A stretch of DNA of 50,596 bases from Escherichia phage tunzivis. The DNA lies in sequence record MN850604.1. One strand, given 5' to 3'. Below are positions 3,198 to 44,984 of the stretch, piece by piece. The notes below the pieces were generated by a model, which saw only the letters and a list, made by a program, of their open reading frames with translations, was not told the DNA's origin and did no database searches. Position 1 is the first letter of the stretch. Every line of letters starts with the position of its first letter. A program made the position numbers and the translations under genes.

Positions 3198-4774
3198 CCC
3201 AGCAGTATTGGATTGACAAAAATAACACCATTAATCACACAAACATAATTTCTTTCTTCCAGCATTGGCAGTAAGTGCCCTTCTATCCTTTTCATTACGC
3301 CAGCCTGACCAACGAAAGGTTTTACCTTTCTCGCTGATTCGTACAGGGCGCGGATATTCAGAATCCCTTTATTAGCCTTGCCGTGCCTCGTGATCAATTC
3401 AATCAATTTACCCATTTCAGCATCATCACCAGCATAACCAGAAGCATTGGCGGCGCTAATGTATGTTTTGCTCAATTCCTGAAACATGATCAACGCCTCT
3501 TGCATTGTTTCCACGTCGATCTCTTTCGACTTCTGCGGGTATCCGGCAGGATTAAACCAGTTACGGATAACATGCAGGACGGAAGCAAGCCTGATCACCT
3601 GTTTATCCATTTTACCCAGCGCACCGCGTAACATTGTATGAGAATACTTTCCTCCGTCTGCAAGATGCGGTTCCATATCCTGGCGAGCAATGTTGAGCAC
3701 TCGCATAGCTGAACGGCTTATTTTCAGCGATATATTTGATTCGCTCATGATGTTATGCACCAATTGATAATATTGGGCTTTCAATTCAGAATCCACCGCC
3801 TCATAGGTAGAATCACCATTTTCATCAATGAATGAGCGACGGCCTAAGAATGATTCCTCTCGGACCAACAAAAAACGCTCACTAACACCGATGCCTCGCG
3901 ATCCAGCGTCCATGATTCCGCTTATCGTTTCATCCTGGGCTATGACGCTCATACATCCAAGCGCGCGAAAACTCATATTATTGTCAGCATTAGCACGGGC
4001 AATTGATACGTGACCATTATCCCACGCCTTAAGCACTAACTCACTGTTAGTCTTCCTTTCGCTATTTGCATAGGTCAAGCCTAACAGACTGTTAATACTT
4101 GTTGCTTCATCAGATATTACGGCAAAGTTACCTTGCTTGTTGTTGATTTTCGCCAAGCCTTCTGGAGTTGTATCTGAAACAGGAAAAGTTATATCACACA
4201 TTTTTTCCAGCTTTTCCTCCAGATCCTCTTTTTCCTGGTATAGAGATTCCATATCAGCGCCGGATCTTTCGCTTTTCATCTCCTTTGCAAGACCTGCCAG
4301 CTTTGCCTGTATTTTCTTTCTTTCCTTGCGGCGTTGCTCGTTGATCTTCTCAACTTCCGCAATCATCGGAGCAATAGCCATGCTGTTGATCGCAGATTTA
4401 CCAGTTGACGGCGGCTGGCTTGTAACGACGTAAAGCGCAGTCGGCTGATCGGTTCCGTGATAGTCAACCGTAAAGCGTCCAAGCATAGCGGCAGAAATGC
4501 AGCCGATAAAGTGCATGTAAGCCGATGATTCAGGGAATTGAACGGATCGCGCAATGCTGCGTGATAACTTGCCGACAACATCAATATCATTACCAAGAGA
4601 AATAACGGGGTAGCGATCGTGACCGCTATTCACATCCTTTACGTCGCCCCAAAAGCTGGACGACTGGCGATAGCCGTTAGCCTGAATTGATACGCGAACT
4701 GGCGAAAGGTTCTGGCTTTCAGCCATAGCGATTATTTGTTGTGGAGTTAATTTGTTCGTTTCTAATGAAAACAT
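3194..4774 (-). CDS. P-loop NTPase, putative replication-associated helicase-like protein (DUF3987-like)
   Basis: 526 aa; Walker A-like VVTSQPPSTGKSAINS; RBS AAGGAGAAG; motif-type promoter 53 bp upstream; family assignment is from memory. Confidence 0.45.
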   Translation of the reverse strand: MFSLETNKLTPQQIIAMAESQNLSPVRVSIQANGYRQSSSFWGDVKDVNSGHDRYPVISLGNDIDVVGKLSRSIARSVQFPESSAYMHFIGCISAAMLGRFTVDYHGTDQPTALYVVTSQPPSTGKSAINSMAIAPMIAEVEKINEQRRKERKKIQAKLAGLAKEMKSERSGADMESLYQEKEDLEEKLEKMCDITFPVSDTTPEGLAKINNKQGNFAVISDEATSINSLLGLTYANSERKTNSELVLKAWDNGHVSIARANADNNMSFRALGCMSVIAQDETISGIMDAGSRGIGVSERFLLVREESFLGRRSFIDENGDSTYEAVDSELKAQYYQLVHNIMSESNISLKISRSAMRVLNIARQDMEPHLADGGKYSHTMLRGALGKMDKQVIRLASVLHVIRNWFNPAGYPQKSKEIDVETMQEALIMFQELSKTYISAANASGYAGDDAEMGKLIELITRHGKANKGILNIRALYESARKVKPFVGQAGVMKRIEGHLLPMLEERNYVCVINGVIFVNPILLG

Positions 4775-41930: not shown

Positions 41931-41959
41931 AAAAGCCCCGCATATGCGGGGCATTTTTT
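41931..41959. terminator. bidirectional terminator between ssb and convergent tail-fibre operon
   Basis: AAAAAGCCCCGC-atat-GCGGGGCATTTTTT. Confidence 0.65.
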
Positions 41960-42632
41960 AGTCTAACGTGGTTGGTTTGTTTACCAGTGCCGCTACAACC
42001 GCTTTTAGCTCGTCAATTTCTTTTCTCATCTCATCGTTTTCCGCTTTCAGTTTCTTAACGTGGTGAATCAGTGGAACAGTGAGGCGGTCATACATAACGC
42101 CTTCCGCCACCATGCCATTACTTGAAGCAATGGCAGGATCTTCTCCTTCTTGCAGCGGTCGCCAGTGAACGTACTCCGGCGCAATTTCTCCAACCTCTTC
42201 CGCGATTAGCCCGTACCATCCCCAATCTTTACGGTCGCTTTCACAAGTTGACCGATACCAAACAGGACGCATTTCAAGCATCAGATCCGCATATTCATCA
42301 ATAACCGATTCTACGCTGCTCTTATAACGAGAAGAGGAAGTGGAGCGTAAAACTTGCGACACTCCAGCATTTGGATCAAGCCATAAGTTTGCTGATTGAG
42401 CGGTTGTGTTAAGATTAAATAAATAAAATGCATCTTTACCAGTTAGGGGGTAAAAACTCCCACTATACCTTCCGCTACCCAACTCGGATGATAGATCAGT
42501 TTGTTTTAGATACAACTTCAACTTATTGTCAACATCAGTAGTTGATGCTTTTCCTGCAACATCCTGTTTTAGTGTTGAAACGTCATTTTTCAGCTTCGTT
42601 ATATCACTAGGTATAACAGTGACTGTAGCCAT
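41958..42632 (-). CDS. tail-fibre-associated protein (putative assembly/chaperone)
   Basis: 224 aa; coiled-coil N- and C-termini; last gene of tail-fibre operon; RBS AAGGAG. Confidence 0.35.
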   Translation of the reverse strand: MATVTVIPSDITKLKNDVSTLKQDVAGKASTTDVDNKLKLYLKQTDLSSELGSGRYSGSFYPLTGKDAFYLFNLNTTAQSANLWLDPNAGVSQVLRSTSSSRYKSSVESVIDEYADLMLEMRPVWYRSTCESDRKDWGWYGLIAEEVGEIAPEYVHWRPLQEGEDPAIASSNGMVAEGVMYDRLTVPLIHHVKKLKAENDEMRKEIDELKAVVAALVNKPTTLD

Positions 42633-42644
42633 TTTCCTAACTCC

Positions 42645-42923
42645 TTAAGCCCATTCTCTAATAGGCTGATCTAACTCAACCACGTATCCATTAAAAATTA
42701 CGGCATCAAACTTATCATCAATGATTCGCACATTAACGAAATAGCCGTCGTTCTTTCGCGCAATCTCCTCGCCATCGTCAGATCGTGCAATTACTGTATA
42801 AGTATTGCCGATTACATCGAGCAGGATTGCATCCTGAATGGATTCGTTATCATCCCAATTAATTTTTCCTAAAAAGGCCGAAAACTCGGCCTTGTCTGAA
42901 AATTTTAATGTTAAATCACGCAT
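42645..42923 (-). CDS. hypothetical protein
   Basis: ORF 42645..42968; start set to internal ATG 42923 which overlaps the tail-fibre stop (TAATG). Confidence 0.35.
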   Translation of the reverse strand: MRDLTLKFSDKAEFSAFLGKINWDDNESIQDAILLDVIGNTYTVIARSDDGEEIARKNDGYFVNVRIIDDKFDAVIFNGYVVELDQPIREWA

Positions 42924-44878
42924 TAAACAATTTCCCCCAATTGATGATCTGTTAGTGCCTTGTGCCATATACGGAAGTTTCTAACGTGCCCGAAAAGATG
43001 ACGTTCTCCCGTAGTTGTTTGTCCGCCAATCCTTATAGTAGCCGTCGATCTTATGTATCTCCATTCCGCTTTTGATTCGCTTGATATTATGGAATTACTT
43101 ACACAACAAGTATTGTAATCACTCTTTACTCTCATTCCCATGATCATCTTTTTTAGTTTCGCATTCTCGTAAACCCTTCGGTTTGAGTTACCTATGTCGC
43201 AATAAGGGAATCCGTCATTATCGCCTTCGGCAGACCCGAAAGCAAGAATTATTGCCGCTCCGGTTTGATGGCCGGATGTATCAAAAACACGTGGCGCAGC
43301 GTTTGGCGTTATACTCCAGTTTTTATGAGCTTCCACAAGCACTGTAAACGGCAAATTGTAAAGGTTGTTTTTTATTGGCAATGTAACCATATCGCTTGCC
43401 CTTGTTGTCGGACTTTCATTAGTTATAATGAATGATGAAGCGCAAGATCCAACCTCTACTTGAGGAGTTGTTAAATCCATAAAGCTATTTTCATCAAAAA
43501 CTTCTCCTTGTTTATTAACGACCTGTATTACCCCCCTAATGGAAGTTGATTCATCAGTAACTTTGTAAACTATTTCTGCAAAAATCCATTCCCCGTCTAT
43601 GGTAGCGTTCTTTAGCACTATGTTTTTTGCGTCAACTCCAGAAGTTGCCACCCCTAAGTTATCGCAATCAATAATAGCAGAAGCAACAGAAGATAAAGGA
43701 TCTCCCTTGTCAAATCTTGCTGCAAATCTTACATTTTTCCCCTTAGCCCTAAAAGATATTGTAACTCCATCACCCTTTACAACTGCAATCTTATTTGCAG
43801 CAGGTCCAGCTATAATAGTGTAAGATCCTACGCCACCTAAATATTCCCCTGGTTTAAATGTTGCATACTTAAACCCCCTTTCATCAGTCTTAGTTTCACC
43901 TCTTTCTAATCCTGGATTTGGATTCCATGATTCAGGCTTATTTGAATTTAAAAAATAGTTTGTTCTCTGCCCTTCAATCAAAAGACCATCCTTTTCAAAT
44001 CTAGGTTCATCAATAGCAGCATCAGTAAGCAACCCAGACTTATTAATGTAAGTAGCGGTTGATGCACGTTTAAACTTAACAATCTTGTCACCTGGCATCG
44101 TGATCTCATCATCACCTATGACAATCTTTTTGTATGACGGCGAGAATCCGGTGATCATATCCAGGGAATCATTAAATGGTATCCACACGTCAGGTAGAGG
44201 CTGCAATAAATCTTTGTAAGGTTCTGCGGCCTGTTTTGCGTATTCCTCCGCTTGATCTCGCGCACTTTCAGCGCCTGCCTTTGCGGTGTTCGCAGCATCA
44301 CGCGCAGTTTCAGCGCCTTTTCTTGCAGTTTCAGCGCCAGTCTTTGCAGTGTTTGCAGCGTCGCGCGCGGATTCAGCGGCAGCCTTTGCAGTATCAGCGC
44401 CTTTCTTGCTATTCGCTGCATTTGTTGCGCTTGTCTTCGCGTTATTCTCGCTGGTTTTAGCTGCCTGCTGGCTTGCTGCTGCTGCGTCAGCATTTGTCTT
44501 TACGTCTTCCTGGATCTTCTGTAGCTTATCCCAATCAAAATCCTTGATGATCTCAATAAATCCAGCAAACTCCGATTCCTTCCCCTGGTAATAACGCAAC
44601 GTTTCCGCTACGTCTTGCGCAAGACCGTCAACCGTTAACGAGTCATGAAGCAAGATCAGGTAATTTGTCTTCTGTACTACCGAGCCTCCAGTAGTAATTG
44701 CGCGAATGCTTGTATCGCTAATCACTTCTGTAATCACAGCAGCTTGCAAAGGTTGAGCAAGAAAGAAAATAGTTGCACCTGGGCGAATCAAGGTTAATTG
44801 CTCACGCCATTTTGTACCGTAACCAGTTACATAACCTTGCGCGTCCATAGACGCTTGGCCTTGTCTGTAAATCGCCAT
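42923..44878 (-). CDS. tail fibre protein with Ala-rich repeat and lectin-like (LamG-type) C-terminus
   Basis: ORF 42923..44902; ATG at 44878 after AGGAGG; degenerate Ala/Thr/Lys repeats (DTAKAAAESARDAANTAKTGAETARKGAETARDAANTAKAGAESARD); C-terminal ...HVRNFRIWHKALTDHQLGEI resembles concanavalin/LamG lectin signature. Confidence 0.65.
   Translation of the reverse strand: MAIYRQGQASMDAQGYVTGYGTKWREQLTLIRPGATIFFLAQPLQAAVITEVISDTSIRAITTGGSVVQKTNYLILLHDSLTVDGLAQDVAETLRYYQGKESEFAGFIEIIKDFDWDKLQKIQEDVKTNADAAAASQQAAKTSENNAKTSATNAANSKKGADTAKAAAESARDAANTAKTGAETARKGAETARDAANTAKAGAESARDQAEEYAKQAAEPYKDLLQPLPDVWIPFNDSLDMITGFSPSYKKIVIGDDEITMPGDKIVKFKRASTATYINKSGLLTDAAIDEPRFEKDGLLIEGQRTNYFLNSNKPESWNPNPGLERGETKTDERGFKYATFKPGEYLGGVGSYTIIAGPAANKIAVVKGDGVTISFRAKGKNVRFAARFDKGDPLSSVASAIIDCDNLGVATSGVDAKNIVLKNATIDGEWIFAEIVYKVTDESTSIRGVIQVVNKQGEVFDENSFMDLTTPQVEVGSCASSFIITNESPTTRASDMVTLPIKNNLYNLPFTVLVEAHKNWSITPNAAPRVFDTSGHQTGAAIILAFGSAEGDNDGFPYCDIGNSNRRVYENAKLKKMIMGMRVKSDYNTCCVSNSIISSESKAEWRYIRSTATIRIGGQTTTGERHLFGHVRNFRIWHKALTDHQLGEIV
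44203..44467 (-). repeat. Ala-rich degenerate repeats within tail fibre gene
   Basis: repeated GCGCCTGCCTTTGC/GCGCCAGTCTTTGC-type units encoding (A/T)AKxGAE(T/S)ARDAANTAK. Confidence 0.5.
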
Positions 44879-44896
44879 TTGTAAAATCCTCCTAAA

Positions 44897-44913
44897 TAGC
44901 ACTTTTTGCTAAT
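44897..44913 (+). promoter_or_regulatory. near-palindromic conserved motif copy abutting RBS of tail fibre gene
   Basis: TAGCACTTTTTGCTAAT; read on the gene strand gives ATTAGCAAAAAGTGCTATTTAGGAGG...ATG. Confidence 0.45.
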
Positions 44914-44943
44914 GACAATGCAGATAATAGCATTTTCAAGTGC

Positions 44944-44968
44944 AAAAAAAAACCCCGCATAAGCGGGG
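44944..44968 (-). terminator. rho-independent terminator after primase gene (leftward)
   Basis: on minus strand CCCCGC-ttat-GCGGGG followed by 9 T. Confidence 0.6.
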
Positions 44969-44984
44969 CAATACTAGCGGAGTT

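What the first reader, a model, noticed from the sequence alone, without database searches (positions are those of the whole stretch)
41958..44878. Leftward tail-fibre operon: Ala-rich repeat fibre with lectin-like C-terminus plus two downstream small genes
The fibre protein has a low-complexity A/T/K-rich repeat region and a C-terminal segment with a LamG/concanavalin-like signature (RNFRIWHKALTDHQLGEI), suggesting carbohydrate (LPS or capsule) binding. Two translationally coupled genes follow (42645..42923 and 41958..42632); the latter has coiled-coil termini and may be an assembly chaperone or a distal fibre component. The operon is convergent with the recombination operon and starts behind an inverted promoter motif.
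Basis: partly seen in the sequence, partly recalled or inferred. Interest (0 to 1): 0.35.

Follow-up and report, generated by a model that had tools for sequence, protein, structure and literature searches.

The report
T1-like phage lateral tail-fibre operon
This is the ordinary three-gene side (lateral) tail-fibre operon of a T1-like coliphage: a long fibre with sugar-binding-type end domains, a small partner protein, and a tiny self-cleaving tip fibre that is broken in about a third of sequenced relatives.

Summary
They form the known lateral-tail-fibre (LTF) locus of Drexlerviridae (genus Warwickvirus; closest relative JLBYU19, 99.2%).

- **Gene 1 (651 aa), the proximal fibre.** It has a virion anchor, an Ala-rich heptad coiled coil, a conserved neck, a hypervariable jelly-roll domain (about 25% identity even to sister phages) and a conserved LamG/ConA-like end domain. 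The lectin-like reading holds at fold and homologue level. The penultimate domain, not the last one, looks like the specificity cassette.
- **Gene 2 (92 aa).** It models as a confident α/β fold with no known relatives. It always follows this fibre end in siphoviruses, myoviruses and prophages, so it is probably that end's assembly partner.
- **Gene 3 (224 aa).** It is best read as a minimal distal fibre rather than a free chaperone. It has an N-terminal motif shared with the distal fibre that Humolli et al. predict attaches to the homologous proximal fibre in T5-like IrisVonRoten. It also has a coiled coil of variable repeat number, a short tip and a Peptidase_S74 intramolecular chaperone with an invariant Ser99/Lys104.

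The "inverted promoter motif" is a terminator hairpin. The one new observation is that gene 3 carries 8 distinct knock-out lesions in 12 of 34 sequenced relatives, while genes 1 and 2 stay intact. Overall this is a new member of a known kind, of modest interest.

The parts
44952..44969 (-). Intrinsic terminator after the primase gene.
   Evidence: GCCCCGCTTATGCGGGGT followed by T9.
44888..44893 (-). Shine-Dalgarno AGGAGG of the fibre gene, 9 nt before the ATG at 44878.
   Evidence: Read directly from the sequence. The start MAIYRQGQ aligns with residue 1 of PDB 7VYV/7LZJ.
42923..44878 (-). Gene 1: lateral tail fibre (proximal fibre), 651 aa.
   Evidence: phrog_1419 tail protein, E 1e-209. Annotated as lateral tail fiber protein in PeterMerian and as tail fiber in JK16 and others.
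44519..44878 (-). Fibre residues 1-120: N-terminal virion-anchor domain conserved across Drexlerviridae side fibres and spikes.
   Evidence: Residues 1-175 match the N-terminus of three solved 'Depolymerase' chains (7VYV, 7VZ3, 7LZJ), E 3e-53. Maffei 2021 notes that only this 5' end is conserved at the locus.
44204..44506 (-). Fibre residues ~125-225: Ala/Thr/Lys-rich heptad repeats, inferred to form a trimeric coiled-coil shaft.
   Evidence: TRF finds 63-nt and 21-nt periods at 44262-44401. Many PHROG tail-fibre families match this stretch.
43949..44188 (-). Fibre residues 231-310: conserved neck (80-89% column identity across homologues). Modelled poorly as a monomer.
   Evidence: pLDDT below 50 for most of it.
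43469..43948 (-). Fibre residues 311-470: hypervariable jelly-roll domain, the likely glycan-specificity cassette.
   Evidence: About 25% identity to PeterMerian, tuinn and swan01, while the flanks are 85-94% identical. NF048003 GTA_spike_fiber scores 54.4 bits against a cut-off of 36 over residues 300-494. pLDDT is about 90. CBM4/6/16/22-like Foldseek hits.
42926..43468 (-). Fibre residues 471-651: conserved LamG/ConA-like beta-sandwich. Proposed docking platform and/or second lectin.
   Evidence: PF13385 is above its cut-off in homologues over the equivalent last ~110 residues. Residues 484-651 are close to identical to IrisVonRoten Gp22 in the printed alignment. pLDDT is 60-70.
42645..42923 (-). 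Gene 2: 92-aa alpha/beta protein, a conserved partner of this type of fibre end.
   Evidence: phrog_1361, function unknown. AF2 pLDDT 90.9; no significant PDB, Pfam or NCBIfam match. Homologues in 178 phage records, with tail-fibre annotation under or beside the match in the rows that are annotated.
41958..42632 (-). Gene 3: 224-aa minimal distal fibre with a C-terminal intramolecular chaperone.
42582..42632 (-). Gene 3 residues 1-17, MATVTVIPSDITKLKND: conserved N-terminal motif, proposed docking peptide.
   Evidence: 13 of 17 residues identical to the N-terminus of IrisVonRoten Gp24. The same motif heads JenP1, KarlBarth and prophage distal fibres of 98-574 aa.
42339..42632 (-). Gene 3 residues 1-98: predicted mature protein, made of a heptad coiled coil and a ~50-aa tip.
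   Evidence: The Pfam S74 match starts at residue 99. The motif TTAxxAN...LRSTSS is conserved before the cleavage site.
41961..42338 (-). Gene 3 residues 99-224: Peptidase_S74 intramolecular chaperone, including its C-terminal helix.
   Evidence: PF13884 scores 22.0 bits, exactly the cut-off, over residues 99-155. 30 of 35 family members hit it, best E 8e-9. K104 is invariant and S99 nearly invariant.
42446..42450 (-). C5 run in gene 3. It is C6 (a frameshift) in orkinos, JLBYU19 and AV105.
41935..41952 (.). Bidirectional intrinsic terminator shared by the fibre operon and the convergent ssb gene.
   Evidence: GCCCCGCATATGCGGGGC with T-runs on both strands.

Best explanation
This is the lateral (side) tail-fibre operon of a T1-like Warwickvirus. 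It encodes a two-part fibre plus a small partner protein.

**Gene 1** makes the proximal fibre.
- An N-terminal anchor fixes it to the tail tip.
- An Ala-rich heptad coiled coil forms the trimeric shaft.
- Each chain then ends in two beta-sandwich domains. The first is a hypervariable jelly-roll that most likely reads a host surface glycan (O-antigen or another polysaccharide). The second is a conserved LamG/ConA-like domain.

**Gene 2** is translationally coupled to gene 1. Its 92-aa product is a dedicated partner of that fibre end. I think it is most likely an assembly factor, filling the role Tfa plays for lambda Stf. Less likely, it is a structural adaptor.

**Gene 3** makes a minimal distal fibre.
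- Its conserved N-terminal peptide docks it on the proximal fibre's conserved end.
- A coiled coil whose length is set by the number of 21-aa repeats spaces out a ~50-residue tip.
- The C-terminal S74 intramolecular chaperone trimerises the protein, then cuts itself off at Ser99 (Ser99/Lys104 dyad), leaving a 98-residue mature subunit.

The fibre speeds or enables reversible adsorption. It is dispensable on rough laboratory hosts.

**Shown here:** gene structure, homologies, domain variability, synteny of the trio, catalytic-residue conservation, purifying selection.
**Inferred:** glycan binding, docking, self-cleavage, the role of gene 2.
For: **Locus identity.**
- 97 phage records match, and 29 cover at least 80% of the query. 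All relatives fetched are Drexlerviridae, Tempevirinae, Warwickvirus. The same gene order (erf, ssb, then the fibre trio, then primase) is seen in each.
- This locus is described as the LTF locus, with only the 5' end conserved, in Maffei 2021.

**Fibre domains.**
- Anchor: E 3e-53 to solved depolymerase N-termini.
- Shaft: heptad repeats.
- End domains: AF2 and Foldseek give tandem beta-sandwiches resembling CBMs, galectins and LamG.
- NF048003 is above its cut-off. PF13385 is above its cut-off in homologues.
- Residues 311-470 are ~25% identical between sister phages whose flanks are 85-94% identical.

**The trio is a cassette.**
- Fibre end, then 92-93 aa, then an S74 fibre recur in E. coli lambdoid prophages after J and lom.
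- The same order is seen in Nonagvirus JenP1 and in T5-like IrisVonRoten. Dhillonvirus KarlBarth has the same order, but its third gene is annotated as two pieces and shows no S74 motif.
- In six further T5-like phages the distal-fibre N-terminus starts 10-13 nt after the 92-aa gene.

**Docking motif and precedent.**
- MATVTVIPSDITKLKND is 13/17 identical to the N-terminus of IrisVonRoten Gp24.
- Humolli 2025 predicts that Gp24 attaches to the proximal fibre Gp22. Gp22's C-terminus is the homologue of ours.
- The best structural match of the tandem module is Pa193 gp46, the baseplate wedge that carries the tail-fibre attachment loop.

**S74 domain.** PF13884 is at its cut-off and is hit by 30/35 relatives. 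K104 is invariant and S99 nearly invariant.

**Gene 3 is a real gene.** It has its own strong SD. dN/dS is 0.14-0.33 among intact orthologues.

**Gene 2 goes with the fibre end, not with gene 3.**
- It is kept in about 46 prophage loci and in mEp460, all of which lack a distal fibre.
- It is also kept behind a homologous fibre end (40% identity) in an rV5-like myovirus.
Against: - No experiment bears on this phage or on any Warwickvirus fibre. The one virion proteome of a relative (swan01) detected only five abundant proteins and no fibre proteins.
- The window's own fibre misses Pfam Laminin_G_3. Its last domain is modelled at only pLDDT 60-70.
- The Foldseek TM-scores are low, at most 0.36 against the whole two-domain query.
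- Neither gene 3 nor a profile of its family finds any solved S74 structure by sequence. The Pfam score sits exactly on the threshold.
- Docking of gene 3's product on gene 1's product is inferred from a shared 17-residue motif, synteny and a published prediction. It is not demonstrated.
- Pairwise divergence of the 92-aa protein does not track divergence of either beta-sandwich domain. Spearman rho is 0.03 and 0.13, and only 0.37 with the neck, without correction for relatedness. Its binding site is therefore unknown.
- A mature distal fibre of 98 residues is unusually small for a receptor-binding protein.
Confidence: 0.62

Rival explanations
1. Gene 3 encodes a free, trans-acting chaperone that folds the main fibre. 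This is the sense of the database labels 'putative lateral tail fiber chaperone' and 'chaperone of endosialidase'. On this view it is not a virion component.
For: - It carries the 'chaperone of endosialidase' domain.
- The part upstream of the domain is very short (98 aa).
- It is annotated as a chaperone in PeterMerian, JK16, XY3 and Jahat.
Against: - S74 domains are described as C-terminal, in-cis, self-cleaving modules of the fibre they fold (Golomidova 2016; Humolli 2025).
- The main fibre has no S74-type substrate region. Its end domains are beta-sandwiches, not the kind of fibre tip that precedes an S74 domain.
- The same fibre end plus the 92-aa gene persist without any S74 gene in about 46 prophage loci and in mEp460.
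- 12 of 34 relatives carry knock-outs of gene 3 with an intact gene 1.
- Its N-terminal motif is shared with bona fide distal fibres of 351-574 aa.
Confidence: 0.12
2. Gene 3 is a decaying leftover of an ancestral long fibre gene. On this view a recombination event replaced the distal part of the fibre with the beta-sandwich module plus the 92-aa gene, and the old C-terminus was stranded as an ORF with no function.
For: - It aligns only to the last ~200 residues of long fibre families (phrog_3299 positions 1184-1384 of 1385; phrog_454).
- About a third of sequenced relatives have it broken.
Against: - dN/dS is 0.14-0.33 among intact copies.
- It has a strong SD of its own.
- It has a conserved N-terminal motif that long fibres lack.
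- Orthologous short genes of 227-234 aa are abundant in E. coli prophages, in clusters of 650 and 2928 member sequences.
- Each broken copy has a single lesion and an otherwise intact frame. That pattern means recent inactivation, not long decay.
Confidence: 0.1
3. The 92-aa protein is a structural adaptor in the virion, joining the proximal fibre end to the distal fibre, rather than an assembly factor.
For: - It sits between the two fibre genes in every trio.
- It is labelled 'tail fiber protein' in the RefSeq record of IrisVonRoten.
- It is a compact, confidently folded domain.
Against: - It is retained where no distal fibre gene exists: about 46 prophage loci, mEp460, and the rV5-like EmilHeitz, whose next gene lacks the motif.
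- It differs strongly between this phage and IrisVonRoten (49% identity). Yet the LamG-like end and the docking motif it would have to bridge are nearly the same in the two phages.
- It was not reported in the mar004NP2 virion proteome, which did detect a tail-fibre protein that may be its neighbour. That proteome was shallow, and I did not verify the locus-tag mapping.
Confidence: 0.3

Closest known systems
Lateral tail fibre locus of Drexlerviridae (BASEL phages such as PeterMerian Bas05; Maffei et al. 2021, PMC8594841)
   Same: - Same position between the erf/ssb recombination genes and primase/helicase.
- Same conserved N-terminal anchor.
- Same three genes. PeterMerian bas05_0031, 0030 and 0029 have the same order and sizes.
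   Different: - The hypervariable jelly-roll allele (residues 311-470) differs: 26% identity to PeterMerian.
- Gene 3 here has one copy of the 21-aa repeat and is 224 aa, against 231 aa in PeterMerian and 245 aa in two-copy forms.
Two-part lateral fibre of T5-like IrisVonRoten (Bas32): Gp22 proximal fibre with 'galectin-like' domain, Gp23, Gp24 T-shaped distal fibre (Humolli et al. 2025, PMC11990801)
   Same: - The Gp22 C-terminal module is homologous: 59% identity over 468 aa, and close to identical over the printed alignment of the last ~170 residues.
- Gp23 is the 92-aa homologue, 49% identical.
- Gp24 begins with the same N-terminal motif and ends in an S74 chaperone.
   Different: - Gp24 is 574 aa and carries two receptor-binding domains. 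Here the distal protein is 224 aa with only a ~50-residue tip.
- The proximal fibre's anchor is T5-type, not T1-type.
- Attachment of Gp24 to Gp22 is itself a structure prediction, not an experiment.
Peptidase S74 / intramolecular chaperone domains of phage T5 L-shaped fibre pb1, K1F endosialidase and GA-1 gp12
   Same: - C-terminal position.
- Ser-x4-Lys motif (SSSRYK), with the Pfam match starting at the Ser.
- GLIAEEV core.
- C-terminal helix.
   Different: - Sequence similarity to the solved examples is too low to detect.
- The passenger upstream of the domain is only 98 residues, against hundreds to more than a thousand.
- Cleavage was not tested.
Branched LtfA/LtfB fibres of T5-like DT57C (Golomidova 2016; Ayala 2023)
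   Same: - A second fibre protein is attached through the first.
- Both carry S74 domains.
- The fibres are dispensable and often lost on rough hosts.
   Different: - LtfA has no LamG-type end or 92-aa partner, as far as the papers read here describe it.
- The LtfB N-terminus is described as phiEco32 gp15-like. In my search DT57-group records matched only the internal part of the Gp24 query, not its first 26 residues.
Lambda Stf-Tfa (side tail fibre and its assembly protein)
   Same: - In lambdoid prophages the cassette sits where stf-tfa sits, after J and lom.
- A small gene is translationally coupled to the fibre gene.
- The side fibre was lost in the laboratory strain lambda PaPa but is present in Ur-lambda.
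   Different: - The 92-aa protein shows no sequence or fold similarity to any Tfa-type family or solved structure.
- The fibre tip is a beta-sandwich pair.

Membership tests
Drexlerviridae lateral tail fibre locus | Located between the recombination genes (exonuclease, erf, ssb) and primase/helicase, on the opposite strand to ssb. | tested here: met
   ORF map. Identical synteny in orkinos, PeterMerian, tuinn and swan01. Described in Maffei 2021 S1C Fig.
Drexlerviridae lateral tail fibre locus | Conserved far N-terminus of the largest fibre protein; the rest is variable. | tested here: met
   Residues 1-175 match Klebsiella-phage depolymerase N-termini at E 3e-53. Residues 311-470 are ~25% identical to sister phages.
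Concanavalin A-like lectin/glucanase superfamily (Pfam PF13385 Laminin_G_3) | Profile match above the curated cut-off. | tested here: inconclusive
   The window protein has no hit at E<=1. 17 of 37 homologues hit. P0177, P0224, P0164 and P0137 score 27.8-36.6 bits against a cut-off of 27.6 over their last ~110 residues.
Concanavalin A-like lectin/glucanase superfamily (Pfam PF13385 Laminin_G_3) | Beta-sandwich (jelly-roll) fold. | tested here: met
   The AF2 model is all-beta in two domains. Foldseek hits include CBM4/6/16/22, galectins and LamG domains of Gas6 and laminin. Confidence is moderate for the last domain, pLDDT 60-70.
Concanavalin A-like lectin/glucanase superfamily (Pfam PF13385 Laminin_G_3) | Carbohydrate binding. 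| not testable with these tools
   Needs glycan arrays or adsorption assays.
NCBIfam NF048003 GTA_spike_fiber domain | Profile match above the curated cut-off. | tested here: met
   54.4 bits against a cut-off of 36, fibre residues 300-494, profile positions 1-181 of 182.
Peptidase S74 / intramolecular chaperone (Pfam PF13884) | Profile match at or above the curated cut-off, at the C-terminal side of a fibre protein. | tested here: met
   22.0 bits, equal to the cut-off of 22, residues 99-155, profile 1-57 of 58. 30 of 35 relatives match, best E 8e-9. This is a borderline score for the window protein alone.
Peptidase S74 / intramolecular chaperone (Pfam PF13884) | Catalytic Ser and Lys five residues apart at the start of the domain. 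| tested here: met
   S99-S-S-R-Y-K104. K104 is invariant and S99 is at least 90% conserved in 35 sequences down to 31% identity. It aligns with SDSRLK of IrisVonRoten Gp24.
Peptidase S74 / intramolecular chaperone (Pfam PF13884) | Autoproteolytic release of the domain after trimerisation. | not testable with these tools
   Needs protein expression and mass spectrometry.
Two-part (proximal + distal) lateral fibres of the IrisVonRoten type | Proximal fibre ending in the homologous beta-sandwich module, followed by the ~92-aa gene. | tested here: met
Two-part (proximal + distal) lateral fibres of the IrisVonRoten type | Distal fibre beginning with the M-x-T-x-T-x-I-P-x-D-I-T-x-L-K motif directly after the ~92-aa gene. 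| tested here: met
   13/17 identity. Also in JenP1, KarlBarth and 29 prophage loci. Adjacency confirmed in six T5-like phages.
Two-part (proximal + distal) lateral fibres of the IrisVonRoten type | Physical attachment of the distal to the proximal fibre. | not testable with these tools
   Only a published AlphaFold-Multimer prediction exists. No multimer prediction was available here.
Tfa-type tail-fibre assembly proteins (lambda Tfa, Mu U, T4 gp38) | Sequence or fold similarity of the 92-aa protein to such families. | tested here: not met
   No meaningful Pfam hit (no family matched more than one of 28 members, best E 0.014) and no NCBIfam hit. PHROG match is to an unknown-function family only. 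Best PDB Foldseek E is 0.025, to ribosomal and NusG-type folds. This failure leaves open that it works like a Tfa.

The most novel reading that the evidence does not exclude
The mini distal fibre may be a conditionally costly module rather than a neutral accessory. Eight different single lesions hit gene 3 in 12 of 34 sequenced relatives, while the three-times-longer fibre gene and the 92-aa gene stay intact. That pattern would fit active selection for loss of the mini-fibre on the rough hosts used for isolation. The mini-fibre might mask the lectin end of the main fibre, or it might tether virions to a conserved surface glycan, much as lambda's side fibres were lost in the laboratory strain. 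On this reading the phage has a detachable, easily switched-off second receptor-binding layer. The 92-aa protein would then define a new family of partners for LamG-type fibre ends.
Probability: 0.3. Interest if true: 0.5.

Novelty: new member of a known kind. Interest (0 to 1): 0.3.

Why it matters
The locus decides which surface glycans this phage can use for first contact, so it matters for host-range prediction and engineering of T1-like phages. The analysis gives three practical points.
- The swap-able specificity cassette is probably residues 311-470 of the fibre, not the terminal LamG-like domain.
- The cassette of fibre end, 92-aa gene and N-terminal docking motif is shared by T1-like, T5-like, Nonagvirus, Dhillonvirus, lambdoid and (without the motif) rV5-like phages. 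It is therefore a candidate plug-and-play junction for attaching foreign distal fibres.
- Database labels calling gene 3 a 'chaperone' are probably misleading. A third of deposited relatives carry a broken copy, and this should be checked before such isolates are used as wild type.

None of this changes the general picture of siphovirus host recognition.

Tried and rejected
- **Solved S74 structures by sequence.** Searching the PDB with gene 3 alone and with a 35-sequence profile found no S74 structure. The S74 assignment therefore rests on Pfam and motif conservation.
- **Function of the 92-aa protein.** Nothing informative came from Pfam, NCBIfam, a PDB sequence profile or PDB Foldseek. BFVD Foldseek gave only uncharacterised viral proteins.
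- **Co-divergence test for the 92-aa protein's partner.** I compared its divergence with that of the neck, jelly-roll and LamG segments across 19 loci. Spearman rho was 0.37, 0.03 and 0.13. The test is uncorrected for relatedness and the locus is mosaic, so I treat it as uninformative.
- **Virion proteomics in the literature.** The swan01 and mar004NP2 data are too shallow to say whether genes 2 and 3 encode virion proteins.
- **Literature search by family labels.** phrog_1361, VOG7707 and FIG00639828 returned nothing.
- **Sigma-70 promoter for the operon.** None was found between the upstream terminator and the start codon. How the operon is transcribed is unresolved.
- **DT57C LtfB / phiEco32 gp15 docking motif.** I considered whether it is the same as the motif here. 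DT57-group records matched only an internal module of the Gp24 query, not its first 26 residues, so I rejected this.
- **GTG at 44902 as the fibre start.** Rejected. It has no SD, and homologues and the PDB match begin at the ATG.

Full report
**What is there.** The minus strand between 41958 and 44878 carries three ORFs.
- Gene 1, 651 aa: ATG at 44878, preceded by AGGAGG at 44888-44893.
- Gene 2, 92 aa: 42645..42923. Its ATG overlaps the fibre's TAA (TAATG).
- Gene 3, 224 aa: 41958..42632. It starts 12 nt after the previous stop and has its own AAGGAG.

The unit is bracketed by two GC-rich hairpins followed by T-runs. One lies after the primase gene (44952-44969). The other is a bidirectional terminator shared with the convergent ssb gene (41935-41952). 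No sigma-70-like site lies between it and the start codon, so how the operon is transcribed is unresolved.

**Where it comes from.** Megablast of the region finds 97 phage records. The best are Escherichia phages JLBYU19 (99.2%) and orkinos (98%). Every relative I fetched is Drexlerviridae, Tempevirinae, Warwickvirus, and each shows the same neighbours: exonuclease, erf and ssb on one side, primase, regulator and helicase on the other. This is the locus that Maffei et al. 2021 describe as the lateral tail fibre (LTF) locus of Drexlerviridae. They note that only the far 5' end of the largest gene is conserved across the family. They also state that use of the fibres to contact O-antigen "has never been directly demonstrated". 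In PeterMerian the three genes are annotated lateral tail fiber protein, hypothetical protein and putative lateral tail fiber chaperone.

**Gene 1, the proximal fibre.**
- *Anchor.* Residues 1-175 match the N-terminus of three solved "Depolymerase" chains (7VYV, 7VZ3, 7LZJ) at E 3e-53. From memory these are capsule depolymerases of Klebsiella phages, 7LZJ being from the T1-like phage RAD2. I did not check this.
- *Shaft.* Residues ~125-225 are the Ala/Thr/Lys-rich stretch. Tandem Repeats Finder gives a 63-nt period with a 21-nt sub-period. That is a heptad pattern, as expected for a trimeric coiled-coil shaft.
- *End domains.* I modelled residues 231-651 with an alignment of 37 homologues. The model has mean pLDDT 69.8 and shows two all-beta domains. 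The first, fibre residues ~305-480, has pLDDT about 90. The second, ~490-651, has pLDDT 60-70.
- *Fold matches.* Foldseek against the PDB returns a 503-residue chain of the Pseudomonas phage Pa193 baseplate and its E217 equivalent (E 2.5e-7 and 1.5e-6). Below these come CBM4/6/16/22 modules, tandem galectins, and the LamG pairs of Gas6 and laminin. TM-scores are low, at most 0.36 over the two-domain query. This supports the fold class and nothing finer.
- *Family matches.* NCBIfam NF048003 (GTA_spike_fiber domain) matches residues 300-494 at 54.4 bits against a cut-off of 36. Pfam Laminin_G_3 does not reach the window protein. It does hit 17 of 37 homologues, and it is above its curated cut-off over the last ~110 residues of the four I checked.

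Carbohydrate binding was not tested.

**Which domain carries specificity.** Column identity across 34 homologues is as follows:

| Fibre residues | Column identity |
|---|---|
| 231-310 | 80-89% |
| 311-470 | 27-56% |
| 471-650 | 56-81% |

Against sister Warwickviruses the contrast is extreme. Residues 311-470 are 26-27% identical to PeterMerian, tuinn and swan01, while the flanks are 85-94% identical. The same domain is 98% identical to Phunderstruck. This is an exchanged cassette, the usual signature of the receptor-binding determinant. It coincides with the confidently modelled jelly-roll and with the NF048003 match. From memory, the head spikes of the Rhodobacter gene transfer agent, after which that model is named, bind capsular polysaccharide. 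That is a lead, not a test. The terminal LamG-like domain is conserved across phage families. In the BLASTP alignment, residues 484-651 are close to identical to the end of IrisVonRoten Gp22, a T5-like phage fibre.

**Gene 3, a minimal distal fibre.**
- *S74 domain.* Pfam Peptidase_S74 matches residues 99-155 at exactly its cut-off (22.0 bits). 30 of 35 relatives match it, with best E 8e-9. In an alignment reaching 31% identity, K104 is invariant and S99 at least 90% conserved. T76, T77, R96, T98 and Y103 are also invariant, giving the motif TTAxxAN...LRSTSSxRYK. A Ser and a Lys five residues apart at the domain start is, from memory, the catalytic dyad of these self-cleaving chaperones. Golomidova et al. 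describe the domain as a C-terminal autocleavable chaperone with a conserved, predictable cleavage motif.
- *N-terminus.* The first 17 residues, MATVTVIPSDITKLKND, are 13/17 identical to the start of IrisVonRoten Gp24. The same motif opens the proteins that follow the 92-aa gene in JenP1 (351 aa), KarlBarth (98 aa plus a second piece) and 29 E. coli prophage loci (229-346 aa), whatever comes after it.
- *Coiled-coil length.* After the motif comes a heptad coiled coil whose length varies with the copy number of a 63-nt repeat. Forms of 224, 231 and 245 aa occur among relatives.
- *Processing.* Cleavage at Ser99 would leave a 98-residue mature subunit.

**The trio is a mobile cassette with a published structural interpretation.** In IrisVonRoten the order is as follows:
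- Gp22, a 796-aa proximal fibre whose C-terminal module is 59% identical to ours over 468 aa.
- Gp23, 92 aa, 49% identical to gene 2.
- Gp24, 574 aa.

Humolli et al. 2025 predict that the T-shaped Gp24 attaches to the proximal fibre Gp22. They describe a "galectin-like domain" protruding from the end of Gp22 that might be an extra receptor-binding domain. The same order recurs after J and lom in E. coli lambdoid prophages and in Nonagvirus JenP1. In six more T5-like phages the distal-fibre N-terminus begins 10-13 nt after the 92-aa gene (coordinates). Pa193 gp46 is modelled as residues 2-504, which fits the 503-residue top Foldseek hit. It is the baseplate wedge carrying the loop onto which the trimeric tail fibre docks. 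That is consistent with a docking role for this kind of module, but given the low TM-scores it is only suggestive.

**Gene 2.** The 92-aa protein models confidently (pLDDT 90.9) as a small alpha/beta domain. No significant match appeared in the PDB (best Foldseek E 0.025, to ribosomal and NusG-type folds), Pfam, NCBIfam or a PDB sequence profile. BFVD gave only uncharacterised phage proteins.

Comparative context is the only handle on its function.
- Homologues occur in 178 phage records, with tail-fibre annotation under or beside the match wherever the record is annotated.
- It stays with the fibre end even where there is no distal fibre. This holds for about 46 prophage loci and for mEp460, where a 95-97-aa predicted membrane protein follows instead.
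- It also holds for the rV5-like myovirus EmilHeitz. There the 1478-aa fibre ends in a module 40% identical to ours (E 3e-98), followed by a 110-aa homologue.

The protein therefore belongs functionally with the beta-sandwich fibre end. I favour an assembly factor in the role of lambda Tfa over a virion adaptor, but only weakly. It is not a member of any Tfa family.

**Is gene 3 functional?** Among intact orthologues dN/dS is 0.14-0.33, so it is under purifying selection. Yet 12 of 34 distinct relatives have it broken. Ten of these show a split annotation. KMB46 has no annotation over the gene and brachmannus has none at all. I checked all sequences except EC125, which I infer from its identical coordinates and scores to EC195.

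| Lesion | Phages |
|---|---|
| C5 to C6 frameshift at SFYP/LTG | orkinos, JLBYU19, AV105 |
| GAG to TAG (IAE*V) | tuinn |
| Gly codon to stop (DW*WYG) | Phunderstruck |
| Tyr codon to stop (APE*V) | EC195, EC125, JLBYU07 |
| Frameshift at RPVWYRS | ityhuna |
| Frameshift at NTTAQSAN | JLBYU10 |
| Out-of-frame change in the 63-nt repeat | KMB46 |
| Frameshift at LYLKQ | brachmannus (an UNVERIFIED record) |

Each copy has one lesion and an otherwise intact frame, so the events are recent. Gene 1 and gene 2 are intact in every case examined. I confirmed this by sequence length or translation in orkinos, tuinn, JLBYU19, Phunderstruck, EC195 and brachmannus, and by annotation only in the others.

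If eight lesions fell at random over the three genes, all landing in gene 3 (about 24% of the length) would have a probability of about 1e-5. This is a rough figure. Shared lesions may be inherited, and homopolymer frameshifts may be sequencing errors.

The pattern argues against gene 3 being needed to fold gene 1's product. It fits a dispensable or even costly accessory on the rough laboratory hosts used for most isolations. Three precedents point the same way.
- T5-like phages frequently lose their lateral fibres on permissive strains.
- A fibre-shaft deletion gave a general fitness gain in the Drexlerviridae phage Bas13.
- The laboratory strain lambda PaPa lacks the side fibres of Ur-lambda.

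**Verdict.**
- The likely specificity domain is the penultimate one.
- The last gene is a self-processing mini distal fibre, not a free chaperone.
- The upstream inverted repeat is a terminator.

Everything here belongs to known kinds of modules in a known locus. The recurrent inactivation of gene 3 and the tight association of the orphan 92-aa family with LamG-type fibre ends are the only new points. Both need experiments.

Noticed in passing
window 41958-42632, compared with L001, L003, L094-L102: The mini distal-fibre gene is intact in the window. It carries 8 distinct single knock-out lesions in 12 of 34 sequenced Warwickvirus relatives: three different nonsense codons, all inside the S74 domain, and five frameshifts. 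The fibre gene and the 92-aa gene stay intact. Intact copies show dN/dS 0.14-0.33.
   Followed up: yes
window 42446-42450: A run of five C in gene 3 is six C in three relatives of two different sequence backgrounds (orkinos and JLBYU19 versus AV105). It may be a slippage hot spot, or a recurrent homopolymer sequencing error.
   Followed up: partly
window ~42560-42620 (gene 3 residues ~5-25); L001, L002, L003: A 63-nt (21-aa, three-heptad) unit IP(S/G)DITKLKNDVSTLKQDVA(T/G) is present once in the window and twice in orkinos, tuinn and EC195. PeterMerian has one copy plus 7 extra residues. This gives 224-, 231- and 245-aa length variants of the coiled coil. One relative (KMB46) has an out-of-frame rearrangement here.
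   Followed up: partly
L015-L063 (E. coli prophage loci), L011 (mEp460): In about 46 prophage loci the gene after the 92-93-aa gene is not a distal fibre. It is a 95-98-aa (146 aa in four loci) hydrophobic, probably membrane, protein starting MDISPLLHALCAVAAQ. Where a distal fibre is present (L005-L007), the same protein follows it. Its function is unknown, and its position is that of lysogenic-conversion or exclusion genes.
   Followed up: no
L009 (KarlBarth, Dhillonvirus) 3770-4649: The gene after the 85-aa homologue is annotated as two overlapping pieces of 98 and 196 aa. The first piece starts with the docking motif. The second has no S74 motif and a different C-terminus. This is either a frameshifted distal fibre of another type or a genuine two-piece arrangement.
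   Followed up: no
(e.g. OR847733.1, MG065692.1, MG065676.1): Records labelled Listeria and Campylobacter phages carry tail-fibre DNA or protein that matches coliphage sequences. The match is 100% to IrisVonRoten Gp24 over 66 aa for Listeria phage LM 4-11-1, and 47.8% and 28.3% to the 92-aa protein for the two Campylobacter records. These are probably mislabelled or contaminated database entries.
   Followed up: no
window 44879-44951: A strong terminator lies directly upstream of the fibre gene and no sigma-70-type promoter follows it. The operon must therefore depend on an unrecognised (late?) promoter or on read-through. Transcription signals of T1-like late genes were not resolved here.
   Followed up: partly
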